From a phage, in the sequence record PX667085.1: 64,000 bases of DNA, one strand, 5' to 3'. Shown one piece after another: positions 6,921-59,528 of this stretch. Below the pieces are notes generated by a model that did no database searches, was not told where the DNA came from, and saw nothing but the letters and a program-made list of their open reading frames with translations. The position numbers and the translations under genes were made by a program. Positions within the stretch are counted from its first letter, which is position 1, and every line of letters begins with the position of its first letter.

Positions 6921-7139
6921 ATGCGTAAATTAGTGAGCTTTAATGTTTCAATTCTTGTTGATGAACAAAATGAAGATGTTATTAAAGGTCTTGCAAATAA
7001 GATTGCAGGTGGAATGACGGAAGCTGAAGTGTGGGAAGAATGTGCTCGACTTTATGAGGAAGGTGTTATTGAGGTCTTGGGGGATGAGATTAATATGGAC
7101 GATGTTGTAAAAGTAACTGTGGAGCGTATCAATGACTAA
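6921..7139 (+). CDS. hypothetical protein
   Basis: 72 aa ORF with SD AAGGAGAAAA upstream. Confidence 0.35.
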   Translation: MRKLVSFNVSILVDEQNEDVIKGLANKIAGGMTEAEVWEECARLYEEGVIEVLGDEINMDDVVKVTVERIND

Positions 7140-7725
7140 ATCAAAACAAATCAATATTGCCAAAGAAATTCTTACCGTATTAAAGATCGCTGATCCTAAT
7201 TCTGTCTTGGCTGGCGGTGCTGTTCGTGATTGGCGTATTCTTGATATTGCTGGACGTGATCTGGATTTCTATACATCCCTTCCTGCACATCGGACTGAAG
7301 AACAAATACAAGGATTAATTGCATCTGCTTTAATGGGAACCAATATTCGTAAACTAGGAAACAAAGAGGCTTCTGACAATTATGAAGGTGTTACTGGTCT
7401 TAAACACGTTTTTGAGTTTGAACGTGATGGTCAGCTTTGCAACCTTATGATTATGGAACCAAGCGTAATGACAACCTTTCTAAATGAGTTCGATCTGTCC
7501 ATCTGCCAGGCTGCATTTGATGGGAAGGATTGTTATTATTCTAAAGATTTTGAAACAACCTTGGAAACAGGGATCTGCTTCTTGCACAAAGACGTTAGAG
7601 AAGATGCCAAACACGTTATTAAAATTGCTACACGTTTCCCATATCTTCGTTTTGTGAAAGAGGTTAAGGTTCCACGTCCACCTCAAGTAGATACCAGATT
7701 GGAAGAAGATGATATTCCTTGGTAA
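7132..7725 (+). CDS. Pol-beta-superfamily nucleotidyltransferase, CCA-adding/poly(A)-polymerase head-like
   Basis: LAGGAVRDWRILDIAGRDLDFY = GGxVRD plus DxD signature; only 197 aa (head domain size); C-terminus EEDDIPW. Confidence 0.55.
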   Translation: MTKSKQINIAKEILTVLKIADPNSVLAGGAVRDWRILDIAGRDLDFYTSLPAHRTEEQIQGLIASALMGTNIRKLGNKEASDNYEGVTGLKHVFEFERDGQLCNLMIMEPSVMTTFLNEFDLSICQAAFDGKDCYYSKDFETTLETGICFLHKDVREDAKHVIKIATRFPYLRFVKEVKVPRPPQVDTRLEEDDIPW

Positions 7726-49250: not shown

Positions 49251-49338
49251 TGGTGGTGAGTGATGGAGTCGAACCACCCGAATCGCAATGATAACAGATT
49301 TACAGTCTGCCCCGCTACCCCTACGGAATTAACTCACC
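49251..49338 (-). tRNA. tRNA-Tyr (anticodon GTA), class II
   Basis: CCA, A73, perfect acceptor; anticodon arm CAGACTGTAAATCTG; long variable arm; 88 nt. Confidence 0.7.
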
Positions 49339-49960: not shown

Positions 49961-50035
49961 TGGTGGCCCTGGCTGGTTTCGATCCAGCTACCTATCGGTT
50001 ATGAGCCGACAGCTCTCCCATTGAGCTACAGGGCC
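49961..50035 (-). tRNA. tRNA with anticodon CAT (Met or lysidine-type Ile)
   Basis: CCA, perfect acceptor; anticodon loop CTCATAA; T-loop reads ATCGAAA (A at position 54). Confidence 0.6.
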
Positions 50036-50244
50036 ATAAATGTGGTAACAGAGACGCTGACTATTGTAGAGAACCGCTACATTCTCTAAGACCAAGCCCA
50101 ACTTTCAGCGTAAAAGTTCTTGAGCCGAGATTATTCCTTTTCCTCTTTGGTAGCTAACCTCTGAAGAAGTAGTCTCTAACACTACCGCAGTGCAAGCCCA
50201 TCTTAACAAAAGTCAACGACCCTCTTACCACACTTGATGAACGT

Positions 50245-50274
50245 ATCCTAACATATGAAGGATACGTTTGTCAA
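50245..50274 (-). promoter_or_regulatory. tRNA-unit promoter 3 (AACTATTGACAA motif)
   Basis: minus-strand TTGACA at plus 50269-50274, -10 candidate TAGGAT; adjacent inverted repeat ACGTATCCT...AGGATACGT. Confidence 0.4.
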
Positions 50275-50281
50275 TAGTTAT

Positions 50282-50530
50282 TTAAGCATATTCTGCTACT
50301 TCTTCACTATCTTTCTTTTCCAGAAGAGCAACAACCAAAGCTTCTGCGTTAAAAGTATTAATTTCAAGATCCATCTCTCGCATCAGAGCCAAGAAATCAA
50401 TAACTTTAACATCTTTAGTGATTACAATAGAAGTTGTACCATTGTTTTCAGATGTGTATTTTTCTGGATGGAAAAGAAAAACTGCATTGCCGTTACCATC
50501 TTCAAACACGTGTTTTTCTAATAGAGACAT
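50282..50530 (-). CDS. hypothetical protein (start revised)
   Basis: internal ATG at 50528-50530 with SD AGGAGGAACA gives 82 aa MSLLEKHVFEDG...; track start at 50596 overlaps upstream gene. Confidence 0.4.
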   Translation of the reverse strand: MSLLEKHVFEDGNGNAVFLFHPEKYTSENNGTTSIVITKDVKVIDFLALMREMDLEINTFNAEALVVALLEKKDSEEVAEYA

Positions 50531-50538
50531 TGTTCCTC

Positions 50539-50790
50539 CTAATCTGTTAGTTGTTCGTCCTCTACCAAGTTTGACACGAGAACGTCTGTTATACATTGAT
50601 GCTGATAAACCCTTTCGGGACTATCATCAAAAGCCAAACCTGTGCAAATAGAACAGAGGTCTGATTCCTTGATGACTCCATTTTTATCACGTCTGGAGTG
50701 GTTTGTCAAATGCCTATTACAAGCACGGCACCTAAAATAAAAGCTATTTTGCATATATCCTTCGAACCCCAAATGGGGAGTGATCGGCAT
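50539..50790 (-). CDS. small zinc-finger protein
   Basis: 83 aa; CRAC...CSIC cysteine pairs. Confidence 0.4.
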   Translation of the reverse strand: MPITPHLGFEGYMQNSFYFRCRACNRHLTNHSRRDKNGVIKESDLCSICTGLAFDDSPERVYQHQCITDVLVSNLVEDEQLTD

Positions 50791-50827
50791 CTCCTCACTT
50801 CTAGTTTAGCACGAAGGATATCTTAAG

Positions 50828-51013
50828 TCAACTAGGAATAATTTTATCCTTTTTGGTTTCATAACCAGTCCAATCTAAATCCTCCCAGCCTTCATCATCG
50901 TCTAACACATTGTCATCATCATAAGATGCAATGTTATAAATAGAACGTGGATTACAAGACATACAATCTTTAATAGGCACATGATGCCATTTGCACGGAT
51001 TCTCGCTAATCAT
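50828..51013 (-). CDS. small Cys-containing acidic protein
   Basis: 61 aa; CKWHHVPIKDCMSC; acidic tail; first gene leftward of divergence region. Confidence 0.35.
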   Translation of the reverse strand: MISENPCKWHHVPIKDCMSCNPRSIYNIASYDDDNVLDDDEGWEDLDWTGYETKKDKIIPS

Positions 51014-51039
51014 TGCACACCTCCATTCTTGTTAAGATG

Positions 51040-51243
51040 TTCCGTACTGTACTTCATACTGATCTATAGATCAAGTATTATTTATAATAATTTATTATTT
51101 TATTTTTAATTGATAGAAGTTGATCTGTACGTACCAGTTCTGATACACTGTACCTGTTTGTTAGATCTAATAATTATTTATTATTAATATTTAATAATTA
51201 TTAATCTAGTACGGAGTACAGTACTTGAGTACAGAGTACTACA
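51040..51243. promoter_or_regulatory. palindrome- and GTAC-rich AT-rich divergence region (candidate operator array or origin)
   Basis: perfect palindromes TGATCTATAGATCA (51060-51073), GTACGTAC (51127-51134), TTAGATCTAA (51161-51170); five AGTAC in 51208-51243; A/T runs between. Confidence 0.4.
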
Positions 51244-51494
51244 TCAACAACCTAAAACCTTAACTCGCTGCGCTCGTTAATAGATTTCTAGGGTAGCATA
51301 CTTCGAACACAAAAGTCAAGAGTTTTATTAAAAATTATTTTCTGTGTGCAAAAACCTTGCTTAAACAGGTAGCAATAGTATAGCCTATAACATAAGCTTC
51401 ATAAGAGGCTCGTAGAGCAAGTTCACTTACTAGGTAAGGTGATTTATCATCTTATATATAAAAAGTGCGTCAGAGACGCGTTTAGGAGGTTAGA

Positions 51495-51818
51495 ATGAGA
51501 TTTACAAGACAAGAGGTAGTTGTGCTGGACGAAGCAATGACAATGATCGTCTTTTACTATGAGGATATCTTCTGTGCAGCATATCATTTAAATGACATTC
51601 AGATTGAATGGCAGCAGATAGCATTCCTGTTGGACAAGAGTAATCATTTGGATGGCTTTGAGTATTTGGAGTGGGATGGTGCAAAGGAAGTTAAAATTGT
51701 AGGGTTAAATCACGATCAGATTGTTGACATGCAATGTAAGTTGTGTCATTATCAGTTCTCAAACAAAGTCAAACTCGAAAGGCAATTGGAGGTGGTTAAA
51801 GATGATAGCACTAATTAG
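51495..51818 (+). CDS. hypothetical early protein
   Basis: 107 aa; SD TAGGAGG; first gene of plus-strand block. Confidence 0.45.
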   Translation: MRFTRQEVVVLDEAMTMIVFYYEDIFCAAYHLNDIQIEWQQIAFLLDKSNHLDGFEYLEWDGAKEVKIVGLNHDQIVDMQCKLCHYQFSNKVKLERQLEVVKDDSTN

Positions 51819-51914
51819 TGAGAATCCAGTCCTGACAACAATTGTTCTGATTTTTGCCATGTGTGTGGTTCACGATATTCTGGTAAGTTATTTTGACAAC
51901 AAAGGAGGTAAGAA

Positions 51915-52109
51915 ATGAAAGACGTTATTCAAATGGTATTCCGTGTAACTCTAGATGGTATACACGTTGTTAAAGGCACACAGAACTACACAGAAGCGAA
52001 AGAATACTTCTTAGAGTGGATTGATACACTGAAGACACAAGATGTGTCCTACAGCCGTGTTACGCTTACTGGCGACCATACCCCAATCATGGAGTACGTA
52101 AAGAAATGA
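51915..52109 (+). CDS. hypothetical protein
   Basis: 64 aa ORF, SD AAGGAGG. Confidence 0.4.
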   Translation: MKDVIQMVFRVTLDGIHVVKGTQNYTEAKEYFLEWIDTLKTQDVSYSRVTLTGDHTPIMEYVKK

Positions 52110-52345
52110 GCAACTATCCAATTACAGGCGTAACCTATTCTTGTGTAGCAAAAGGTGGTTTATATACAGTAGTGGAATTTCCAAAACCTGCCGGAATATC
52201 TAAAGTGTTTGATCCTGTGGTTATCTATGAAGATCTTAGAACAGGTCAACGTTACTGGAGATTTGTGAATGACTTTTTAGATCGTATGGAGGTAGTAAGT
52301 GGCGAAAACACCGAAGAAGTTATCAAAGCCAAAGAACGTTACTAA
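52106..52345 (+). CDS. hypothetical protein
   Basis: 79 aa ORF, start overlaps previous stop (ATGA). Confidence 0.4.
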   Translation: MSNYPITGVTYSCVAKGGLYTVVEFPKPAGISKVFDPVVIYEDLRTGQRYWRFVNDFLDRMEVVSGENTEEVIKAKERY

Positions 52346-52652
52346 GAAACCGAAAAACGAGGTTCTCAAAGTAGCTAAATCAGTTCCTAAGAAAGATAAA
52401 TTTGATACGGAGGCATTCGTCTTTGACACACCAATCGAGAAGATTGAAGAAGCGTTGCAACGTCTTGAGGAGCAGGAGGCAGATCCGATGGCTGAACCAC
52501 TCACGGCAGACCAAATTTATTGGTGGGGAATATGGACTTTGCAACTGCCAGAAGCAAAAAGAAGAGGAATGACTTCAGTTCCTACTTGTGCAAAAGAAGC
52601 GGCTGTGTTAGGTTTGTATGAGAAATCTAAAAAGAGGAGCAAAAAGAAATGA
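52299..52652 (+). CDS. lysine-rich basic protein (possible nucleic-acid binding)
   Basis: GTG start with SD GGAGG inside the 3' end of upstream gene; Lys-rich N- and C-termini. Confidence 0.4.
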   Translation: MAKTPKKLSKPKNVTKKPKNEVLKVAKSVPKKDKFDTEAFVFDTPIEKIEEALQRLEEQEADPMAEPLTADQIYWWGIWTLQLPEAKRRGMTSVPTCAKEAAVLGLYEKSKKRSKKK

Positions 52653-52930
52653 TCAAGACTTTTCTGAAGTGTGTAAAAGCAACAGATAATGAGTGGTACT
52701 CTGGATTATTCACTGCTGGCAAGAAATACGAGATCCTCAACGGGACAGGCAAGAAGTTTTCTCTCGTTGTAAACGATGAAGGCACGAAGCAAATGGTTTT
52801 TGCTGAAAGTTCTGTTTATGGTATTTTTGAAGTAGTGCAAGAAGGCTCTCCAATGATTCTGGAGTATCATGGCACTAATAAACCATATACTGCTATAGAT
52901 GTTATCAACAACAAGAGGAATGCAAAATGA
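52649..52930 (+). CDS. hypothetical protein
   Basis: 93 aa, coupled. Confidence 0.4.
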   Translation: MIKTFLKCVKATDNEWYSGLFTAGKKYEILNGTGKKFSLVVNDEGTKQMVFAESSVYGIFEVVQEGSPMILEYHGTNKPYTAIDVINNKRNAK

Positions 52931-53109
52931 TTTTACTCTATTCCGGTAAGGCAAAATACATGCAAGGTGTTAAACGTGTAGAGGTTACTAAGACAGTAAC
53001 AATCGGGAAATCTTTTATCGTTTATTATTTCCTTGTTAATGGGAAGGAGTATGCTGTAGCAAAGACCTTGGTTGATAAGGGTAAAACGTGGAAAGTGGAG
53101 GCACTATGA
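52927..53109 (+). CDS. hypothetical protein
   Basis: 60 aa, coupled. Confidence 0.3.
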   Translation: MILLYSGKAKYMQGVKRVEVTKTVTIGKSFIVYYFLVNGKEYAVAKTLVDKGKTWKVEAL

Positions 53110-53312
53110 TCCCTGTAGCTGGGTGGGTGGTATTGGCAACACTTAATGGGAATGTTACTGTGGAGACTAAAACCATCTTCAAAGCACCAGAAGATTGCTA
53201 TAACTCCTTGGTAACTTGGCCTCGTGATGAGGATGATAAGGCAGAGTATCAGTGTTTTTACATTGAGGGTAAGCCTGTAGAATTTGAGGTTAAAGTGAAG
53301 GAGGAAAAATGA
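53088..53312 (+). CDS. hypothetical protein
   Basis: 74 aa with predicted N-terminal hydrophobic segment. Confidence 0.35.
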   Translation: MESGGTMIPVAGWVVLATLNGNVTVETKTIFKAPEDCYNSLVTWPRDEDDKAEYQCFYIEGKPVEFEVKVKEEK

Positions 53313-53779
53313 AAATTAAAGTAACTAAAGCTTACGATGATAACCCGAAGTTTATCTCTTTGAATAAGAGCTATGGTATCGAAAACGGTGATGAGTTCGA
53401 GGTTATCGATCTTTTTGAGGACCACGGGTATATTGTCAAAGCCCCAATCACAGAGCAGGCTATTATCATCTTACGCACAGAGGCTGTTGAGGTAGGTTCT
53501 GATGAGCCTCAATATGACAGCCCATACATGACAGAGTGGATCGTAGCTGTGGATGTTGGAGGTATGGTTTCTGTACTGAAAGCTCCTAATCTCCATCCTG
53601 GTTTTACAGAGAACGGTAAGACAGCTTTGGATTATGGGTTGCCAGAAGATGTTGAGAATACACCGCCAGGTATGTACCGTTGGATTTGCTCTTTCCATGA
53701 AGAGAAGGATTGGGAATCAGGACTTGTTGATGATTGGCATTTTGAAGTGGAAAGTTCTTTTTTGATCATGCCAGCTTAA
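53309..53779 (+). CDS. hypothetical protein
   Basis: 156 aa, SD GGAGGAAAA. Confidence 0.4.
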   Translation: MKIKVTKAYDDNPKFISLNKSYGIENGDEFEVIDLFEDHGYIVKAPITEQAIIILRTEAVEVGSDEPQYDSPYMTEWIVAVDVGGMVSVLKAPNLHPGFTENGKTALDYGLPEDVENTPPGMYRWICSFHEEKDWESGLVDDWHFEVESSFLIMPA

Positions 53780-53789
53780 AGGAGGTTAT

Positions 53790-54134
53790 ATGAAAGTTTG
53801 GATAGATGATATGCGGAACCCAGCCGACTATGGACAGGAAGATGCAATTTGGTTTAAAACGTCACAAGAAGCTATGGCCTTTCTCAATGATCCTGCTAAA
53901 CTGTATCGAAGAGTAACCGAGTGGTCTTTTGACAATGATTTAGGTATGGAGTCAGACCAAGATGGGTATGATGTTTTCCTGCACCTGGAAGAACTTCTGG
54001 CGTTTGGTAAACCTTGCTTTGGTTCACCTACCATTTTCGTGCATACTTCTAATCCCGCCGCTGGGGATAAATTCATGCTTGCAAAAGAATCCATGCAGCG
54101 TTATGGTATTAAAATGATTCGTGTGCACTACTAA
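53790..54134 (+). CDS. hypothetical protein
   Basis: 114 aa, SD AAGGAGG. Confidence 0.4.
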   Translation: MKVWIDDMRNPADYGQEDAIWFKTSQEAMAFLNDPAKLYRRVTEWSFDNDLGMESDQDGYDVFLHLEELLAFGKPCFGSPTIFVHTSNPAAGDKFMLAKESMQRYGIKMIRVHY

Positions 54135-54293
54135 GGAGAGAACATGCATCATTCGGTTTGGTCGGAACAAGAAGAGGACGAAGGTTACTTTATCTACAGA
54201 GAAGAAGAGGATTGGCCCGACACAAGCAATGATCTTTTACTTCCAGATACTAGTTTTTTCGAGGATAATTTAAGAGAGGAGGATTAGGAAACA

Positions 54294-54650
54294 ATGAGTG
54301 GTATTGAAAACAACATTTGTTACCAACCTCTTACCTGGATGGGTGAGGGTCATTATGCGCAACGTGTTATCGTCTGTGCTGCAAATAAGTATATTTTGAA
54401 TAATGGTGAAGAATTAATTATTCCTTGTGTTCGACATGCAAATCCTGTACTATATGCACAGTTAAACGTGTTGAAAGAAGCAGGTGTAATCAACAAAACT
54501 TTGTGCACACCAGATAATCAAGGCTTTATCGATCAGTATTACAATTGGTGGAGTCGTGCGGATGCTTACATCATCGCGGAAAATGCTGACCAAATCGACC
54601 ATGAGCGTAATGGTCACGACCATGAATTATTTAGCGAGGGATTATACTAA
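54294..54650 (+). CDS. hypothetical protein, coupled to RNA-repair-like operon
   Basis: 118 aa; stop overlaps next start (TAATG); no motif resolved. Confidence 0.4.
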   Translation: MSGIENNICYQPLTWMGEGHYAQRVIVCAANKYILNNGEELIIPCVRHANPVLYAQLNVLKEAGVINKTLCTPDNQGFIDQYYNWWSRADAYIIAENADQIDHERNGHDHELFSEGLY

Positions 54651-55201
54651 TGTTTATTACAAGCGATTTGCATTTTATGCATAAACGTATTCGAGAGTTT
54701 GCTCCTGAATATCGTCCGTGGGAAGATATGGACCACATGACAGAAGCCTTGATCGAAGCATGGAACAAATGTGCTACTACTTCTGGTGTTAAGATGTGGC
54801 ATTTGGGCGACTTCTGTTTCGGAACTGAAGAAGATACCCGTAAAATTGCTTCCCGTCTCCAAGGAGATATCACCTACTGTGTTGGGAACCATGACTACAG
54901 CAAACACCGAGAAGTGCTTGCAGAGTATGGAGAAGTGGTGTATTATGACGAAGTGAAATATCAGAAGCTGTTCTTCGTCTTAAGCCATTACCCTATGGCC
55001 TCCTGGAATAAACAAGGTCGTGGATCAATCATGCTACACGGGCATTCCCACGGATCTTTCCCTGATGAAGCTTATGGTAAAATGTTAGATGTGGGTTGGG
55101 ATGCACACGGAAAAATCTTGCATTTTGATGAGATAATTTCTATGATGAGTAAACGAGATATCGTGACTGTAGACCATCACAAAATAATCAAAGGAGAGTA
55201 A
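54650..55201 (+). CDS. calcineurin-like metallophosphoesterase (candidate RNA 3'-phosphatase / 2',3'-cyclic phosphodiesterase)
   Basis: motifs SDLHFMH (DxH), HLGDFCFG (GD), VGNHD (GNHD), later HGHSHG. Confidence 0.6.
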   Translation: MFITSDLHFMHKRIREFAPEYRPWEDMDHMTEALIEAWNKCATTSGVKMWHLGDFCFGTEEDTRKIASRLQGDITYCVGNHDYSKHREVLAEYGEVVYYDEVKYQKLFFVLSHYPMASWNKQGRGSIMLHGHSHGSFPDEAYGKMLDVGWDAHGKILHFDEIISMMSKRDIVTVDHHKIIKGE

Positions 55202-55202
55202 T

Positions 55203-56135
55203 GTGGCTAAATTTAATTGCGACGATTTGGTTGAAAAAGGTTTAGTTCATAAGAAAACATATAAAGAAGGAGAGTATTCTGGTCTATCTGTTCTTAAGTA
55301 TAAGAACAAAGTTTTCTGGGATAACTTATGGAGCATTGATTCTCGTCTTCTAGAATGTCGCGGAATCGTTGTTGATGCTGATGACAATGTTGTTATTTGG
55401 CCTTTCACTAAGATTTTTAATCGTTTTGAGAATGGCACAGATCTACCAGCGGATGAATTTGTAGATGTGGTTCGTAAAGTAAATGGTTTTATGGCCTCTG
55501 TAGGTGTATATAAAGGTCAACTTATTGTATCTACAACAGGAAGCCTTGAATCAGATTTTGCAAGTATTGCAAAGAATCATATTGTTTCAGAGTGTGATGA
55601 CATAGAACACTTCATCAAATGGACAGAGAGTGCAAAAGCAACTTTCCTTTTTGAAATCTGTGATCCTTCTGATCCGCATATTGTCGAAGAAGAACCAGGT
55701 GCATACTTAATTGGTGCCAGAATTCAAAATCCTGATGGGACAAGTTTTATGTTACCTGAAGGTGCTCTTGATGGAATTGCTTCTGTCACCAAATTTAAGC
55801 GTCCTGAAGTTCATCCAATGGTTAAGTTTTCAGATGTTGTTGAAATGTCTAAACATTGTAAACACGAAGGGTTTGTAGTTCGTGAAACAAACTATCCGTT
55901 CAACTTACTTTTAAAAATTAAATCACCACACTATCTTACTAAGAAGTTTCTTATGCGCGGTGGAGATAAAAAGTGGGATCTGATTTGGGATAATCCAAAA
56001 AATGCCAAACAAATGGTTGACGAAGAATATTACGCTTTGTTAGAATGGATTCGAAATAATTTTACGAAGATTCAATGGGCTGCTTTAAATCAGCAAGAGC
56101 GACGTGAAAAAATCGAAAACTTTTTTGGAGGATAA
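55203..56135 (+). CDS. RNA-ligase-like covalent nucleotidyltransferase
   Basis: GTG start after AGGAGAG; motif I RKVNGF (KxNG), motif IV EGFVVRE, motif V LLLKIKS; a separate DNA-ligase-like gene exists at 57283. Confidence 0.55.
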   Translation: MAKFNCDDLVEKGLVHKKTYKEGEYSGLSVLKYKNKVFWDNLWSIDSRLLECRGIVVDADDNVVIWPFTKIFNRFENGTDLPADEFVDVVRKVNGFMASVGVYKGQLIVSTTGSLESDFASIAKNHIVSECDDIEHFIKWTESAKATFLFEICDPSDPHIVEEEPGAYLIGARIQNPDGTSFMLPEGALDGIASVTKFKRPEVHPMVKFSDVVEMSKHCKHEGFVVRETNYPFNLLLKIKSPHYLTKKFLMRGGDKKWDLIWDNPKNAKQMVDEEYYALLEWIRNNFTKIQWAALNQQERREKIENFFGG

Positions 56136-56540
56136 ATGAAACAACTTATCATTTTACGTGGCGTTTCAGGTGCTGGTAAATCTACAGTAGCAGAAATTAT
56201 TTCTGAAGGTTATTGGCCTATCTGTGAGGCAGATCAATATCATTACACAGAGAGTGGTGTTTACGATTGGAAGCCAGAAAATGTAGGTAAAGCACACGCA
56301 TGGTGTCAGGGTATTGTTCGTGATGCTATGGCATCTAATCTTAACAAGATTATTGTTTCTAATACTTCAACCACAGAGAAAGAACTTAAACCTTACCTAG
56401 CTCTTGCTGAAAAGTTTGGTTATCAAGTTATCTCTTTAGTTGTTGAAAATAGGCACGGTAATGATTCAATTCACGAGGTTCCACAATATATCCGTGATCA
56501 GCAAGAGAAACGTCTTCGTGGTTCACTTAAACTTCAATAA
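56136..56540 (+). CDS. P-loop polynucleotide 5'-kinase-like protein
   Basis: Walker A GVSGAGKST; 134 aa kinase-domain size; start abuts upstream stop. Confidence 0.55.
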   Translation: MKQLIILRGVSGAGKSTVAEIISEGYWPICEADQYHYTESGVYDWKPENVGKAHAWCQGIVRDAMASNLNKIIVSNTSTTEKELKPYLALAEKFGYQVISLVVENRHGNDSIHEVPQYIRDQQEKRLRGSLKLQ

Positions 56541-56549
56541 GGAGAAATA

Positions 56550-56876
56550 ATGCAGATTTATACAGATGATCGTAAATATGAGACAATTTTAGATGAAGAT
56601 ACTGGACGAATTACCGTTCTCCGTCACGGTGAAGAGTGGCGTGATGAAACGGGAGACAATTATATCTTGTCTCTGATTCATCTTATTGAACAAATGCGTG
56701 ATGATTACGCTGAACTGCATTATGAAAATGAGGCTAATAAAGTAAAATTTGAAAATGAATTAGAAGAGAAAGAATCCGAAATGGTATATCTAAAAGAAGA
56801 GATCTCCCGTTTGGAGGAAGAGATTGATGCTCTTCAAGAAGAGATTTACGAACTCAACAACGAACTTAACGCTTAA
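56550..56876 (+). CDS. coiled-coil protein
   Basis: 108 aa; C-terminal heptad-like EEISRLEEEIDALQEEIYELNNELN. Confidence 0.4.
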   Translation: MQIYTDDRKYETILDEDTGRITVLRHGEEWRDETGDNYILSLIHLIEQMRDDYAELHYENEANKVKFENELEEKESEMVYLKEEISRLEEEIDALQEEIYELNNELNA

Positions 56877-56885
56877 GGAGGGATT

Positions 56886-57077
56886 ATGAAAAAAGATATC
56901 GTTGTTGTTGGTTGGCTGACTTGCCCTTGTGGTAGTAATGACATAACTGTAAACACAGAGGGTGATAAAAATTATTTATTCTACGGGGATAAAATCACTT
57001 GCAATACCTGCGGACGTGTTGGTATTATAGAAACCGATGATTGTTGTGCTTTTGAATCTTGGGATGAAGAAGAATGA
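56886..57077 (+). CDS. small zinc-ribbon protein
   Basis: 63 aa; CPCG...CNTCG...CC. Confidence 0.4.
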   Translation: MKKDIVVVGWLTCPCGSNDITVNTEGDKNYLFYGDKITCNTCGRVGIIETDDCCAFESWDEEE

Positions 57078-57295
57078 GTACTGCATTTTATGTTCGTAGC
57101 GGAGACGAGGATTTTCTAGCTACTTTTGATGACGGTGATCTTGAAGATATGTATGAAGATATGCTTGACTATGCCAAAAGGCAAGGTTTCACAAGCATTG
57201 ATTACATGTTGGCAACATCTACAACGTTACTCGACGCAGATTTGGATGAAGTGTGTAACAGATTGAAAATTTCAGTTTTTAAATGGGAGGACTAA
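57074..57295 (+). CDS. small acidic protein
   Basis: 73 aa, Asp/Glu-rich. Confidence 0.35.
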   Translation: MSTAFYVRSGDEDFLATFDDGDLEDMYEDMLDYAKRQGFTSIDYMLATSTTLLDADLDEVCNRLKISVFKWED

Positions 57296-58410
57296 TGCAA
57301 CAAACAAATCAAACGCTGTATGGTAAAGATTCAAAAGGAAAACTTAAACAGTGGACAGTGTATACAGATGGTGCAGTTGTTACTGTAGCTCATGGAAGAG
57401 TAGGTGGAAAAATCACAGAAAAATCTTATACAGCAGAAGCAAAAAACATTGGTCGTTCCAATGAAACAACACCGGAAGAACAAGCTGAACTTGAAGCTTT
57501 TGCCAAATGGACAAAACAGTTAAAGAATGGCTATTATAAAACAAAAGAAGAAGCTGAAAACCATGTTCCTTCCACACCAATGAAATGCCAGGATTATAAA
57601 GATTATCCTGAAAGGGTTGTGTTCCCTGGTTATGCACAATACAAACTGAACGGGTTACGTTCTATGATTAACATGAAAGGAGAGTGTTTATCAAAAGCTG
57701 GGGAAGTGTATAACCTGCCACCTCATTGGAAAGGTATTCCAAACTTTATTAGTGAAGTTGTTGGTCATCCTCTTGATGGTGAAGTGTTTGCTGGGTTAGG
57801 TGTCCTTAGTCTGCAACAAATTAACAGCGCCTGGAAGAAGCATAATGCAAATACACCTTTGCTGAATTATTACGTATACGATATTCCAGTTCCAGATCTA
57901 CCGTTTGAAAAACGTGTTGATGTTCTTGCTGCTCTTAAGGCAGTAGTTGAAGATTATGGTCTTGATGAGCTTATTTGTGTAGTTCATACAGAGTATATTG
58001 AAAACCAAGAACAGTTTGATGCTTTCTATGAAAAAGCTTTACTTGAGAAAGCTGAAGGTGTAGTATATCGTAATGCTCACGGAGTTTACGAATTTGATAA
58101 ACGTTCTTATGACGTTATTAAACGTAAGCCTCGCCATACCCTTGAAGTTAAAGTAACAAATTCAAAAAGTGATAAAAATGGCGATGGAGTGTTGACAGGT
58201 GAGATGGAAAATGGTAAAGTAGTCGAATTCTTAATGCGTAAAGATGCTCATGAGACTATCAATTATCGTAAAGCAGAGAATGCTTCTACCTTGATTAATC
58301 AGTTTGTTGAAATAGAGTATGAAGAATTTTCAGATGAAGGTATTCCAACAAAACCTGTTGGTGTTCGTATTCGAGAAATGATCCCAGGCACTTGGGAACC
58401 AGCAGAATAA
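57283..58410 (+). CDS. ATP-dependent DNA ligase
   Basis: motif I KLNGLR, motif III DGEVF, motif IV EGVVYR, motif V VIKRK; 375 aa. Confidence 0.65.
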   Translation: MGGLMQQTNQTLYGKDSKGKLKQWTVYTDGAVVTVAHGRVGGKITEKSYTAEAKNIGRSNETTPEEQAELEAFAKWTKQLKNGYYKTKEEAENHVPSTPMKCQDYKDYPERVVFPGYAQYKLNGLRSMINMKGECLSKAGEVYNLPPHWKGIPNFISEVVGHPLDGEVFAGLGVLSLQQINSAWKKHNANTPLLNYYVYDIPVPDLPFEKRVDVLAALKAVVEDYGLDELICVVHTEYIENQEQFDAFYEKALLEKAEGVVYRNAHGVYEFDKRSYDVIKRKPRHTLEVKVTNSKSDKNGDGVLTGEMENGKVVEFLMRKDAHETINYRKAENASTLINQFVEIEYEEFSDEGIPTKPVGVRIREMIPGTWEPAE

Positions 58411-58419
58411 GGAGGAAAA

Positions 58420-58614
58420 ATGTTCTTAGCCATTTTAATCGTTTTCAGTGTGCTTTCTTTTTATTGTATGAATGCTTCGGAAAGCTTTCCTAAGAATTCA
58501 AAGAAAAGAACCGTATGTATTGCGATTGATTCATGTATGTCTGGAGTTGGGTATGCGGTAGTTTCTTGTTTCTTAGCTTATCATTGTGCAAAATACCTAG
58601 AGGCATTTTTATGA
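58420..58614 (+). CDS. small membrane protein
   Basis: 64 aa with hydrophobic helices. Confidence 0.35.
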   Translation: MFLAILIVFSVLSFYCMNASESFPKNSKKRTVCIAIDSCMSGVGYAVVSCFLAYHCAKYLEAFL

Positions 58615-58793
58615 TAATTTTAGCAACAATTCTTATGATGTTGATAGCCATTGCTATTGTAATTCTGGCATCTTTTCCGGCGGATAAATGGTATTTCAAT
58701 ATTCCGCGTATGCTTGTTTTCGGTTTCGCAGGAATTTACATGGGTGAGACTGTAGTAAATATTAGCAACTTTCTAGAAAGCTATTTTAAATAA
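58611..58793 (+). CDS. small membrane protein (start revised)
   Basis: ATG at 58611 overlaps upstream stop (ATGA); MIILATILMMLIAIAIVILA...; track ORF 58533 is in same frame upstream. Confidence 0.35.
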   Translation: MIILATILMMLIAIAIVILASFPADKWYFNIPRMLVFGFAGIYMGETVVNISNFLESYFK

Positions 58794-58802
58794 GGAGTTA
58801 TA

Positions 58803-59528
58803 ATGATCGAGAATTTTTTTAAAGATATTAAATTCGATACTGAATTTTTCAAAAATGCAGCAAAGCACGTGATTGATTGGAATGCCAAAGCACGAGGTGG
58901 TGAACAACCTGAATTCACTCAAGAGCTATTTATGTCCCAAATCGGGTTCGTTCGTGAAGAGCTTAAAGAGTATGAAACAGCCGCGAAAGTAAACGATCAT
59001 GTAGAACTCTTGGATGCAGCAGCGGATATTTTTGTAGTATCCAGTTATCTTACTTACATGTTCTTTGGTGAAGAACATACGATGAATTTCTTGGACTATG
59101 CTGTAGGCGATGTTTTTACTCCAACTGTGTATACTGATTTTGATGCTTTGGAACAAACATTTACAGAGCCAGTTCAAATGGCACTAATGGCTGCTGGTAT
59201 TATGCGTATGTCTCGTGACACTCTAATCCGTTCAAAATATCCAGAAAAGAAAGTTATTAAAGAGGTATTGAAAAGTAATGATTCCAAGTATCCAACTAAA
59301 CAACAATTGCTGAAAACTTGGAAAACTTCAGATATCGATTCAGCCATTGCACAAGAATGCGCTGCAATTGAAGAACGAAATGCCAATCGTCCAGAAGGGG
59401 CATACACTGGTGTTCATGCTGTTTATAATGAAAAACAGAAAGTGTATGTGTTCTTTGATGATAAAGGTAAGATCATGAAACCATCGACCTTTGTCAAACC
59501 TAATATTGCAGGTATTATTAACAAGTAA
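58803..59528 (+). CDS. MazG-like nucleoside triphosphate pyrophosphohydrolase (tentative)
   Basis: acidic helix REELKEYETAAKVNDHVELLDAAADIFVV resembling the EExxE...D metal-binding motif. Confidence 0.35.
   Translation: MIENFFKDIKFDTEFFKNAAKHVIDWNAKARGGEQPEFTQELFMSQIGFVREELKEYETAAKVNDHVELLDAAADIFVVSSYLTYMFFGEEHTMNFLDYAVGDVFTPTVYTDFDALEQTFTEPVQMALMAAGIMRMSRDTLIRSKYPEKKVIKEVLKSNDSKYPTKQQLLKTWKTSDIDSAIAQECAAIEERNANRPEGAYTGVHAVYNEKQKVYVFFDDKGKIMKPSTFVKPNIAGIINK

What the first reader, a model, noticed from the sequence alone, without database searches (positions are those of the whole stretch)
54650..56540. Three-gene operon with the parts list of an RNA healing-and-sealing pathway
Three translationally coupled genes encode a calcineurin-type metallophosphoesterase (DxH, GD, GNHD motifs), a ligase-superfamily nucleotidyltransferase (KxNG, EGFVVRE, LLLKIKS) and a 134-aa P-loop kinase (GVSGAGKST). 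Together these are the activities needed to repair RNA cut to 2',3'-cyclic phosphate and 5'-OH ends, as T4 Pnk plus Rnl1 do after anticodon-nuclease attack; the phosphatase here is calcineurin-type as in bacterial Pnkp, not HAD-type. A separate DNA-ligase-like gene at 57283-58410 argues the 310-aa ligase is not the replicative ligase. With 14 tRNA genes and a CCA-type nucleotidyltransferase (7132-7725) in the same window, the inference is a phage tRNA maintenance and counter-defence module in a split three-ORF layout.
Basis: partly seen in the sequence, partly recalled or inferred. Interest (0 to 1): 0.8.

Follow-up and report, generated by a model that had tools for sequence, protein, structure and literature searches.

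The report
Phage RNA end-healing and sealing genes
Three adjacent genes in this E. coli phage encode a phosphoesterase, a T4-type RNA ligase and a small polynucleotide kinase, which together most likely repair cut RNA such as tRNA; this kind of module is already known and predicted in phages, though this version has never been tested in the lab.

Summary
The window is a Phapecoctavirus, 100% identical to Escherichia phage ECO340P1.

The three genes stay linked, co-directional and in five different orders across distant phages. The kinase also occurs naturally fused to Rnl1 ligase, HD and CNPase domains.

The trio is a segment of a long gene array, not its own operon. There are 10-11 tRNAs, not 14, and the "CCA enzyme" is unproven.

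An RNA healing-and-sealing function is well supported but not new. Relatives are already annotated this way, published surveys predict such modules, and homologues in phage Bas54 are dispensable on E. coli K-12. The phosphoesterase's substrate is inferred.

The parts
54650..55201 (+). 183-aa binuclear metallophosphoesterase of the aq_1665/COG4186 clade. It is the predicted 3'-end healing enzyme (2',3'-cyclic phosphodiesterase and/or 3'/2'-phosphomonoesterase).
55203..56135 (+). 310-aa ATP-dependent RNA ligase of the Rnl1 clade, with a GTG start. It has a nucleotidyltransferase domain plus a short C-terminal helical domain (about residues 242-307). It is the predicted sealing enzyme for 3'-OH/5'-PO4 RNA ends.
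   Evidence: PF09511 4.3e-15; phrog_562 3.1e-70. K92, N94, G95, E151, E222, G223, K238 and K240 are invariant in 24 homologues. The family profile hits T4 Rnl1 (2c5u) at 1.8e-10. The AF2 model has pLDDT 92.5. Foldseek top hits are Trl1-LIG and T4 Rnl1 at E 2e-13 to 5e-12; DNA ligases score 1e-4 or worse. It falls below the NCBIfam T4 RnlA equivalog cutoff, 23 bits against 242.
56136..56540 (+). 134-aa stand-alone P-loop polynucleotide 5'-kinase. It is the predicted 5'-end healing enzyme (5'-OH to 5'-PO4).
   Evidence: PF13671 4.6e-10; phrog_2071 3.7e-56; phrog_505 'polynucleotide kinase' 9.6e-8. The family profile against the PDB gives Pnkp1 (4xrp) 1.9e-7, T4 Pnk (1ly1/1ltq) about 2e-5 over its full length, and CthPnk (4gp7) 5e-4; other kinases align only at the P-loop. 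K15 and D33 are invariant, and D33 aligns with T4 Asp35. Natural fusions exist to Rnl1 ligase, HD and CNPase domains.
53790..54134 (+). 114-aa cREC (cyclic-phosphate-processing receiver-fold) protein. It is a probable accessory member of the module and a predicted phosphoesterase acting on 2',3'-cyclic ends.
   Evidence: PF20274 6.5e-17. D6, D7, D48 and D50 are invariant in 5 homologues. The gene lies between the ligase and the kinase in L007-L010. In rV5-like JES2013 it overlaps the 3' end of the RNA ligase gene. It recurs in 10 of the 80 kinase loci. Iyer et al. 2021 predicted its function and its linkage to RNA ligases (PMC7824862).
54294..54650 (+). 118-aa protein of unknown function whose stop overlaps the phosphoesterase start by 1 nt. 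Whether it belongs to the module is uncertain.
   Evidence: phrog_839 (unknown function) 4.1e-47. It has no Pfam, PDB-sequence or PADLOC hit. A homologue was found in only 1 of the 80 kinase loci.
57283..58410 (+). 375-aa ATP-dependent DNA ligase. It is context only and shows that the 310-aa ligase is not the phage's DNA ligase.
   Evidence: PF01068 1.7e-9; phrog_114 1.9e-74; NCBIfam PRK09125 2.2e-15.

Best explanation
The three genes, probably together with the cREC gene three ORFs upstream, form a phage RNA end-healing and sealing module.

Proposed pathway. [quoted passage not shown] The 134-aa kinase transfers a phosphate from an NTP to the 5'-OH. The metallophosphoesterase, possibly after cREC opens the cyclic phosphate, removes the 3'/2' phosphate to give a 3'-OH. 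The Rnl1-type ligase is adenylylated on Lys92, transfers AMP to the 5'-phosphate and joins the ends.

What is shown here: fold and family of each protein, intact catalytic motifs, conserved linkage, and natural fusions.

What is inferred: the substrates of the phosphoesterase and cREC, the identity of the RNA target, and the biological role as a counter-measure to host tRNA- or RNA-cleaving defences, by analogy with T4 Pnkp/Rnl1 against PrrC.
For: Ligase. It matches PF09511 and all nucleotidyltransferase motifs are invariant. The family profile hits T4 Rnl1. A confident model (pLDDT 92.5) is closest to Trl1-LIG and T4 Rnl1, and DNA ligases lie far behind. A separate DNA ligase is present.

Kinase. 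The best PDB profile hits are all RNA-repair polynucleotide kinases (Pnkp1, T4 Pnk, CthPnk). The P-loop Lys and the general-base Asp are conserved.

Phosphoesterase. All metal-binding motifs are invariant and the model is confident. Lambda phosphatase, a generic member of the superfamily, has 2',3'-cyclic phosphodiesterase activity (PMC2190708 abstract).

Linkage. The trio occurs in Vibrio phage VnaP (same order, isolated between the portal and terminase genes), in Pakpunavirus, in Otagovirus and in rV5-like phages with the ligase inverted. Of 80 viral kinase loci, 52 have the MPE, 27 the Rnl1 ligase and 23 all three. There are five gene orders, always co-directional. Fifteen further loci pair the kinase with a PF09414 RNA ligase instead.

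Fusions. Kinase-Rnl1 ligase fusions occur in both orders, along with HD-kinase (the architecture of the characterised HD-Pnk; PMC6097658) and kinase-CNPase.

cREC. It is embedded in the module in relatives.

Dispensability. The Bas54 homologues tolerate transposon insertions on E. coli K-12, as expected for an accessory counter-defence function (10.1101/2025.11.20.689424).
Against: No member of this MPE clade has a known substrate. Its nearest structure, aq_1665, is uncharacterised, and it is no closer to the Pnkp phosphatase than to LpxH, YfcE, Mre11 or the P. putida MPE nuclease.

No MPE-kinase fusion was seen among the top 150 kinase relatives.

The T4 Arg38 equivalent in the kinase is His36 and varies across the family.

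The ligase lacks a T4-length C-terminal tRNA-specificity domain and fails the T4 RnlA equivalog cutoff. tRNA specificity is therefore not established.

In the supplement rows I saw, the Bas54 ligase, kinase and phosphoesterase homologues showed no significant change in the comparison reported there. No conditional phenotype is yet known for them.

The loci used for the linkage statistics are not phylogenetically independent.
Confidence: 0.7

Rival explanations
1. The module heals and seals DNA rather than RNA. It would process nicks or breaks with 3'-phosphate/5'-OH ends in phage DNA, made for example by host nucleases.
Against: The ligase fold is closest to the RNA-specific Rnl1/Trl1 enzymes, and DNA ligases score about 9 orders of magnitude worse. 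The PdeM hit is 17 bits against a cutoff of 150. Where the Rnl1 ligase is absent, the kinase is paired with another RNA ligase family, PF09414. The phage has its own DNA ligase for DNA sealing.
Confidence: 0.1
2. The phosphoesterase and cREC do not heal RNA ends. Instead they degrade small-molecule immune signals or NAD-derived metabolites (cyclic nucleotides, cADPR-like molecules), and the kinase and ligase act separately.
For: Iyer et al. propose cRec acts on cADPR or on 2',3'-cyclic nucleotides and find it linked to NAD-processing genes. In other phages the module neighbours Sir2, Nudix, macro, PRPP-synthetase-like and NAMPT genes. Close structural neighbours such as MJ0936 and YfcE are generic phosphodiesterases.
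Against: The MPE is co-directional with the kinase in 52 of 52 loci where both occur and usually lies within 1 kb of it. In Vibrio phage VnaP the three genes form an isolated cassette with no NAD genes nearby. The kinase's fusion partners (HD, CNPase, RNA ligase) are all RNA-end enzymes.
Confidence: 0.1
3. The module matures the phage's own RNAs, for example by processing transcripts of the adjacent tRNA cluster or by splicing or ligating phage RNAs, rather than repairing defence-inflicted damage.
For: A cluster of 10-11 tRNA genes lies about 2 kb from the start of the array, transcribed divergently. The fungal relatives of the ligase (Trl1) are tRNA-splicing enzymes.
Against: The Bas54 homologues are dispensable on E. 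coli K-12, which argues against an essential role in maturation. ARAGORN and Rfam report no intron-containing tRNAs. Vibrio phage VnaP carries the cassette between structural genes, away from any tRNA gene within the 7.4 kb shown.
Confidence: 0.07
4. The ligase mainly serves as a tail-fibre attachment catalyst like T4 gp63, and its position next to the kinase and phosphoesterase is incidental.
For: PHROG and RefSeq label the family 'RNA ligase and tail fiber protein attachment catalyst'. T4 and Bas37 rnlA are poorly tolerant of transposon insertions.
Against: The label is inherited from T4. The Bas54 ligase homologue tolerates insertions well, with a mean count of 192 against 36 for T4 rnlA and 6 for Bas37 rnlA. 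Linkage and fusion with the kinase are conserved. The C-terminal domain differs from T4's.
Confidence: 0.03

Closest known systems
T4 Pnkp (PseT) + Rnl1 (RnlA) tRNA repair pathway, which counters the PrrC anticodon nuclease
   Same: It uses a phage-encoded polynucleotide 5'-kinase of the same P-loop clade (profile E about 2e-5 over the whole T4 kinase domain). It uses an Rnl1-clade ligase with identical catalytic motifs. The enzymes are separate polypeptides and the function is accessory.
   Different: The 3'-phosphatase is a separate binuclear metallophosphoesterase, not a HAD (DxDxT) domain fused to the kinase. The ligase is 310 aa with a C-terminal helical domain of about 65 aa, where T4's is about 120 aa, and it scores far below the T4 RnlA equivalog cutoff. 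A cREC gene accompanies the module. Unlike T4 rnlA, the ligase appears dispensable, judging from the Bas54 homologue.
Bacterial Pnkp (Clostridium thermocellum Pnkp-Hen1; Capnocytophaga Pnkp1-Rnl-Hen1)
   Same: The same three chemistries are present: P-loop kinase, binuclear metallophosphoesterase and ATP-dependent RNA ligase. The kinase profile's best PDB hit is Pnkp1 (4xrp, 1.9e-7).
Runella slithyformis HD-Pnk repair cluster (Munir & Shuman 2017, as cited in PMC6097658)
   Same: It pairs a 5'-OH polynucleotide kinase with a metal-dependent 2',3'-phosphoesterase next to an ATP-dependent ligase. Members of this window's kinase family occur fused to HD domains in both orders.
   Different: Here the phosphoesterase is a calcineurin-like MPE and is not fused. 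I did not directly compare the Runella Pnk domain with this kinase.
Phage RNA-repair gene sets predicted by comparative genomics (Burroughs & Aravind 2016; Iyer et al. 2021, PMC7824862)
   Same: Those surveys describe ATP-grasp RNA ligases (Rnl1/Rnl2) co-occurring with polynucleotide kinases and phosphoesterases, 'calcineurin-like' in a minority of cases, and operonic linkage of cRec to RNA ligases. This locus fits that description.
   Different: The surveys are computational and focus on jumbo phages and cellular genomes. This 150-kb Phapecoctavirus module and the aq_1665-type MPE clade have not been tested biochemically in any paper I could find. The 2016 paper was not available to read.

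Membership tests
Rnl1-clade ATP-dependent RNA ligase (T4 RnlA / PF09511) | Covalent nucleotidyltransferase motifs I (KxxG), III, IV and V with the catalytic lysine | tested here: met
   K92-x-N94-G95, F150-E151, E222-G223 and K238-x-K240 are invariant in 24 homologues. They align with the T4 Rnl1 motifs.
Rnl1-clade ATP-dependent RNA ligase (T4 RnlA / PF09511) | Fold closest to Rnl1/Trl1-LIG rather than to other RNA or DNA ligase clades | tested here: met
   Foldseek gives Trl1-LIG and T4 Rnl1 at E 2e-13 to 5e-12 (TMq 0.60-0.64), Rnl3 about 1e-9, Rnl2 5e-7, Rnl5 1e-5 and DNA ligases 1e-4 or worse. PF09511 scores 56.6 bits against a cutoff of 28.3.
Rnl1-clade ATP-dependent RNA ligase (T4 RnlA / PF09511) | T4 RnlA orthology, including the T4-type C-terminal tRNA-specificity domain | tested here: not met
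   NCBIfam TIGR02308 (T4 RnlA equivalog) scores 23.2 bits against a cutoff of 242. The sequence alignment to T4 Rnl1 covers only residues 48-239. The C-terminal helical region is about 65 aa.
Rnl1-clade ATP-dependent RNA ligase (T4 RnlA / PF09511) | Sealing of 3'-OH/5'-PO4 RNA ends (tRNA anticodon-loop breaks) | not testable with these tools
   This needs a biochemical assay.
Polynucleotide 5'-kinase (T4 Pnk / Pnkp P-loop clade) | P-loop GxxGxGK[ST] and the general-base Asp (T4 Asp35 / Cth Asp38) | tested here: met
   G12, G14, K15 and D33 are invariant in 25 homologues. D33 aligns with T4 Asp35 in the profile alignment.
Polynucleotide 5'-kinase (T4 Pnk / Pnkp P-loop clade) | Full-length similarity to known polynucleotide kinases rather than to nucleotide or small-molecule kinases | tested here: met
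   Profile hits are Pnkp1 1.9e-7, T4 Pnk 1.7e-5 (query 2-133 against residues 1-147) and CthPnk 5e-4 (query 4-134). Gluconate, adenylate, thymidylate and NR kinases align only at positions of about 3-40.
Polynucleotide 5'-kinase (T4 Pnk / Pnkp P-loop clade) | Arg contacting the 5'-terminal nucleotide (T4 Arg38 / Cth Arg41) and the lid Arg (T4 Arg126). That these residues are essential is from my own memory of the T4 Pnk literature. | tested here: inconclusive
   The position aligned with T4 Arg38 is His36 and it varies across the family. Invariant R106 aligns with T4 Arg122, four residues from Arg126. Invariant R8 has no T4 counterpart. No kinase structure was predicted.
Bacterial Pnkp (C. thermocellum type) | Single trifunctional polypeptide (kinase, lambda-phosphatase-like MPE, ligase) partnered with Hen1 | tested here: not met
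Calcineurin-like binuclear metallophosphoesterase superfamily (PF00149) | Motifs DxH, GD, GNH[DE], H and GHxH that bind two metal ions, on the MPE fold | tested here: met
Calcineurin-like binuclear metallophosphoesterase superfamily (PF00149) | RNA 2',3'-cyclic phosphodiesterase / 3'-phosphatase activity (the end-healing role) | not testable with these tools
   This is inferred only from linkage with the kinase and ligase. The nearest structure, aq_1665, has no known function.
cREC (PF20274) cyclic-phosphate-processing receiver domain | Match to the family model, with the receiver-type acidic residues conserved | tested here: met
   PF20274 6.5e-17, 62 bits against a cutoff of 27. D6, D7, D48 and D50 are invariant in 5 homologues. 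The catalytic activity is itself only predicted in the literature.

The most novel reading that the evidence does not exclude
The small kinase and the aq_1665-type metallophosphoesterase, often with cREC, form a widespread phage-specific end-healing pair that replaces the fused T4 Pnkp. In this reading the 3'-end chemistry is split between two enzymes: cREC opens the 2',3'-cyclic phosphate and the MPE removes the resulting monoester. This would assign a first function to the uncharacterised aq_1665/COG4186 MPE clade and to cREC. A more speculative extension starts from the ligase's equal similarity to Trl1-LIG and from the recurring Sir2, Nudix, macro and NAD-salvage neighbours. These could mean a Trl1-like route through a 2'-phosphate intermediate that is cleared with NAD-linked chemistry.
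Probability: 0.2. Interest if true: 0.55.

Novelty: new variant of a known kind. Interest (0 to 1): 0.35.

Why it matters
tRNA- and RNA-cleaving defences such as PrrC, RloC, PARIS, Retron-Eco7/PtuAB and Cas13 are now recognised as common. However, the only experimentally established phage RNA-repair countermeasure is still T4 Pnkp/Rnl1.

The kinase family found here is very large, with 9,550 representative clusters at E<=1e-10. In phages it usually travels with this metallophosphoesterase and an RNA ligase. This split module, rather than the T4 arrangement, may therefore be the common phage solution.

Testing it would give a function to an uncharacterised metallophosphoesterase clade and to cREC. 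It would also help predict which therapeutic phages (Phapecoctavirus, Vequintavirinae, Pakpunavirus) can escape tRNA-targeting immunity.

This is an incremental advance within a known framework, not a new principle.

Tried and rejected
- Single-sequence PDB searches gave nothing for the ligase and only P-loop matches for the kinase. Family profiles were needed.
- I suspected that the 118-aa ORF (54294-54650) was a conserved fourth component, homologous to small ORFs next to the module in other phages. The alignment showed no relationship and BLASTP against a 101-aa look-alike found nothing. Pfam, PDB and PADLOC searches were empty. It stays unknown.
- Membership in PdeM (ligase-associated DNA-damage MPE) is rejected: 17 bits against a cutoff of 150.
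- I looked for MPE-kinase fusions as Rosetta-stone evidence and found none among the top 150 representatives. Only ligase, HD and CNPase fusions turned up.
- PADLOC gave no meaningful defence-system hit.
- Burroughs & Aravind 2016 could not be retrieved. Searches for phAPEC8 + RNA ligase, COG4186 and aq_1665 found no functional study.
- The promoter and terminator scan found no signals bounding the trio, and promoter-like matches were at shuffle level, 41 against 36 +/- 6.
Full report
**Identity of the window.** The region 53700-58500 is 100% identical to Escherichia phage ECO340P1 and 98-99% identical to many phAPEC8-like myoviruses (Stephanstirmvirinae, Phapecoctavirus). In ECO340P1 every gene here is labelled 'hypothetical'. 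In relatives the three genes are already named. Schickermooser calls them 'putative phosphoesterase or phosphohydrolase', 'putative RNA ligase' and 'putative polynucleotide kinase'. RefSeq ESCO13 calls them 'phosphoesterase', 'RNA ligase and tail fiber protein attachment catalyst' and 'ATPase'.

**Checking the observation.** The ORFs at 54650-55201 (183 aa), 55203-56135 (310 aa, GTG start) and 56136-56540 (134 aa) exist, and all the quoted motifs are present. The junction gaps are +1 and 0 nt, with GGAG-type Shine-Dalgarno-like runs upstream of the ligase and kinase starts. The 118-aa ORF upstream overlaps the phosphoesterase start by 1 nt. This tight packing is not special to the trio. Eighteen co-directional ORFs from 52299 to 59528 have gaps of -82 to +10 nt, and no promoter or terminator signal brackets the trio. 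The three genes are therefore a segment of a long array that begins beside a divergently transcribed tRNA cluster, not a separate operon.

**The ligase.** Pfam assigns it to RNA_lig_T4_1 (4.3e-15) and PHROGs to phrog_562 (3.1e-70). A search found 1,738 relatives, mostly on phage contigs of about 145 kb. In an alignment of 24 of them, K92, N94, G95, E151, E222, G223, K238 and K240 are invariant. These are nucleotidyltransferase motifs I, III, IV and V. The family profile finds T4 Rnl1 (2c5u) at 1.8e-10 over residues 48-239.

The AlphaFold model is confident (pLDDT 92.5, pTM 0.87). Foldseek ranks fungal Trl1 ligase domains and T4 Rnl1 first (E 2e-13 to 5e-12, TMq 0.60-0.64). Next come archaeal Rnl3 (about 1e-9), Rnl2 (5e-7) and Rnl5 (1e-5), and DNA ligases score 1e-4 or worse. 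So it is an Rnl1-clade RNA ligase. It is not a T4 RnlA orthologue: it scores 23 bits against an equivalog cutoff of 242. Its C-terminal helical region is only about 65 residues and does not align with T4's by sequence. tRNA specificity therefore cannot be assumed. A separate DNA ligase lies at 57283-58410.

**The kinase.** Pfam gives AAA_33 (4.6e-10). PHROGs gives phrog_2071 'ATPase' (3.7e-56) and, more weakly, phrog_505 'polynucleotide kinase' (9.6e-8). A profile of 25 homologues hits Capnocytophaga Pnkp1 (1.9e-7), T4 Pnk over its whole kinase domain (about 2e-5) and the C. thermocellum Pnk domain (5e-4). Gluconate, adenylate, thymidylate and nicotinamide-riboside kinases align only at the P-loop. 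The P-loop lysine (K15) and D33 are invariant, and D33 aligns with T4 Asp35. The position of T4 Arg38 is His36 here and is variable. R8 and R106 are invariant. I leave the arginine assignments open because no kinase structure was predicted.

The exhaustive search shows a very large family: 13,067 representative clusters at E<=1e-3 and 9,550 at E<=1e-10, nearly all stand-alone proteins of about 135 aa. The longer members are informative:
- kinase then Rnl1 ligase (P0447, and the viral ORF L073:574-1872);
- ligase then kinase (P0508, P0390);
- HD then kinase (P0391, P0449, P0479) and kinase then HD (P0502);
- kinase plus 2',3'-cyclic-nucleotide phosphodiesterase (P0476).

HD-Pnk is a biochemically characterised end-healing architecture (Munir & Shuman 2017, as cited in PMC6097658). 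Every fusion partner is an RNA-end enzyme.

**Conserved linkage.**
- Vibrio phage VnaP carries phosphoesterase, RNA ligase and kinase in the same order, as an isolated cassette between the portal and terminase genes.
- Pakpunavirus and Otagovirus keep all three with interspersed genes.
- rV5-like phages have the ligase inverted next to the kinase and phosphoesterase.

I scanned 80 IMG/VR loci holding a kinase homologue, most of them 40-50% identical to the window's kinase, with profile HMMs. Of these, 52 have the phosphoesterase, 27 the Rnl1-type ligase and 23 all three. Partners are always on the kinase's strand, with median gaps of 587 nt (MPE) and 44 nt (ligase), and five different gene orders occur. 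Closeness exceeds uniform placement within the flanks (binomial p of 7e-6 and 6e-8). These p-values are indicative only, because the loci are not independent. In 15 loci that lack the Rnl1 ligase, a PF09414 RNA ligase with an OB domain sits by the kinase instead. This argues that the kinase's constant partner is 'an RNA ligase' rather than one particular protein.

**A missed component.** The ORF at 53790-54134 matches Pfam cREC_REC, the 'cyclic-phosphate processing receiver domain' (6.5e-17), and D6, D7, D48 and D50 are invariant. Iyer et al. 2021 defined cRec as a predicted phosphoesterase for 2',3'-cyclic RNA ends or cADPR and reported operonic links to RNA ligases (PMC7824862). Here it lies three genes upstream. 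In L007-L010 it lies between the ligase and the kinase. In rV5-like JES2013 it overlaps the end of the ligase gene. It recurs in 10 of the 80 loci. I count it as a probable member of the module.

**Indirect experimental evidence.** In the HIDEN-SEQ transposon study, the rV5-like phage Bas54 has the same arrangement. Its genes are annotated 'RNA ligase', 'polynucleotide kinase' and 'putative phosphoesterase', with a hypothetical gene at the cREC position. All four tolerate insertions, with mean counts of 192, 171, 140 and 88. T4 rnlA scores 36 and Bas37 rnlA scores 6. In the comparison rows I saw for the Bas54 ligase, kinase and phosphoesterase, the changes were not significant (log2FC about +0.3 to +0.4). 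In the same study the T4-like PseT orthologue of Bas37 is conditionally required in one comparison (log2FC -1.9; q printed as 0.00000), and the legend to Extended Data Fig. 6 flags it among genes depleted in uropathogenic isolates. Dispensability on K-12 fits an accessory counter-defence role and argues against a T4-like tail-fibre function for the ligase. It does not show what the module does. The equivalence of the Bas54 genes with the window's genes is inferred from subfamily and identical synteny with JES2013, whose kinase is 43% identical.

[quoted passage not shown] The kinase heals the 5' end. The metallophosphoesterase heals the 3' end, possibly after cREC opens the cyclic phosphate. 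The Rnl1-type ligase then seals the break through Lys92 adenylylation.
- Shown here: folds, intact active sites, linkage and fusions.
- Inferred: the substrates of the phosphoesterase and cREC, the RNA target, and the counter-defence role.

I put this at about 0.7. The rivals are DNA end repair (0.1), degradation of small-molecule or NAD-derived signals by the phosphoesterases (0.1), maturation of phage RNAs (0.07) and tail-fibre attachment (0.03).

**Comparison with known systems and novelty.** The module works like T4 Pnkp/Rnl1 and like bacterial Pnkp, but it is a member of neither.
- It has no HAD domain.
- The three activities are not fused.
- The MPE belongs to a different clade.
- No Hen1 was found among the neighbouring ORFs I scanned.

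It fits the phage RNA-repair gene sets predicted by Aravind's group. A 2025 paper on Pakpunavirus Adele explicitly proposes tRNA repair by the homologous kinase and ligase. That paper notes the missing 3'-phosphatase domain without connecting it to the neighbouring phosphoesterase (PMC12846349). I rate the locus a new variant of a known kind. It is untested biochemically, but a specialist would not find it surprising.

**Ancillary claims.** The tRNA genes number 10 (ARAGORN) or 11 (Rfam, which adds a weak match at 49254-49338). All are on the minus strand at 48.1-50.0 kb. ORF 7132-7725 belongs to a PHROG 'nucleotidyltransferase' family (6.5e-63) and shows a GGAVRD...DLDF motif. It has no Pfam hit and no PDB sequence hit, so calling it a CCA-adding enzyme is unsupported.

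Noticed in passing
In related phages it sits inside the ligase-kinase module.
   Followed up: yes
window 54294-54650 (+): A 118-aa ORF has a stop codon that overlaps the phosphoesterase start by 1 nt. It matches phrog_839 (unknown function) and has no Pfam, PDB-sequence or PADLOC match. A homologue was found near the kinase in only 1 of 80 other viral loci.
   Followed up: partly
window 7132-7725 (+): A 197-aa ORF has a GGAVRD...DLDF (Pol-beta-like) motif and matches PHROG 'nucleotidyltransferase' families. It has no Pfam hit and no PDB sequence hit, so it may be a divergent tRNA or RNA nucleotidyltransferase, but its type is undetermined.
   Followed up: partly
window 49254-49338 (-): Rfam calls an eleventh, weak tRNA (39 bits against a gathering score of 29) that ARAGORN does not report and that ESCO13 does not annotate. 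It could be a degenerate or unusual tRNA within the cluster.
   Followed up: no
L073:574-1872; proteins P0447, P0508, P0390, P0391, P0449, P0479, P0502, P0476: Members of this kinase family occur naturally fused to Rnl1-type ligase (both orders), HD phosphohydrolase (both orders) and a CNPase-type 2',3'-cyclic phosphodiesterase. No fusion with the metallophosphoesterase was seen among the top 150 representatives.
   Followed up: yes
L003 (Pakpunavirus B8), L004 (JES2013), L005 (Otagovirus M5.1), L007-L010, several IMG/VR loci: In other phages the kinase/ligase/phosphoesterase genes are flanked by NAD-related genes: Sir2, Nudix, macro domain, and a PRPP-synthetase-like gene plus NAMPT/NAPRT. 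This hints at a link between RNA repair and NAD metabolism or counter-defence.
   Followed up: partly
window 58803-59528 (+): A MazG-like nucleotide pyrophosphohydrolase (PF01503; phrog_671) lies downstream of the DNA ligase. The DNA ligase-MazG pairing recurs downstream of the module in 7 of the 80 viral loci.
   Followed up: no
GenBank records MG065650, MG065689, MG065661 and others ('Campylobacter phage B15, A110a, C9'): B15 (MG065650) is about 99% identical at DNA level to this E. coli Phapecoctavirus. In the kinase tblastn, B15 and A110a are 98% and 94% identical, while C9 is 43% identical, the same as rV5-like coliphages. The Campylobacter host label looks doubtful.
   Followed up: no
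window about 50000-52300: The strand switches and GC skew changes sign here, between the minus-strand tRNA/late region and the plus-strand array that holds the module. The best promoter-like match (TTGACA-17-CATTAT with an upstream TG) is at 51724-51752.
   Followed up: no
window 56550-56876 (+): A 108-aa coiled-coil protein immediately follows the kinase. PHROGs labels it 'hol-like chemotaxis' (phrog_18076), which looks like an uninformative inherited label.
   Followed up: no
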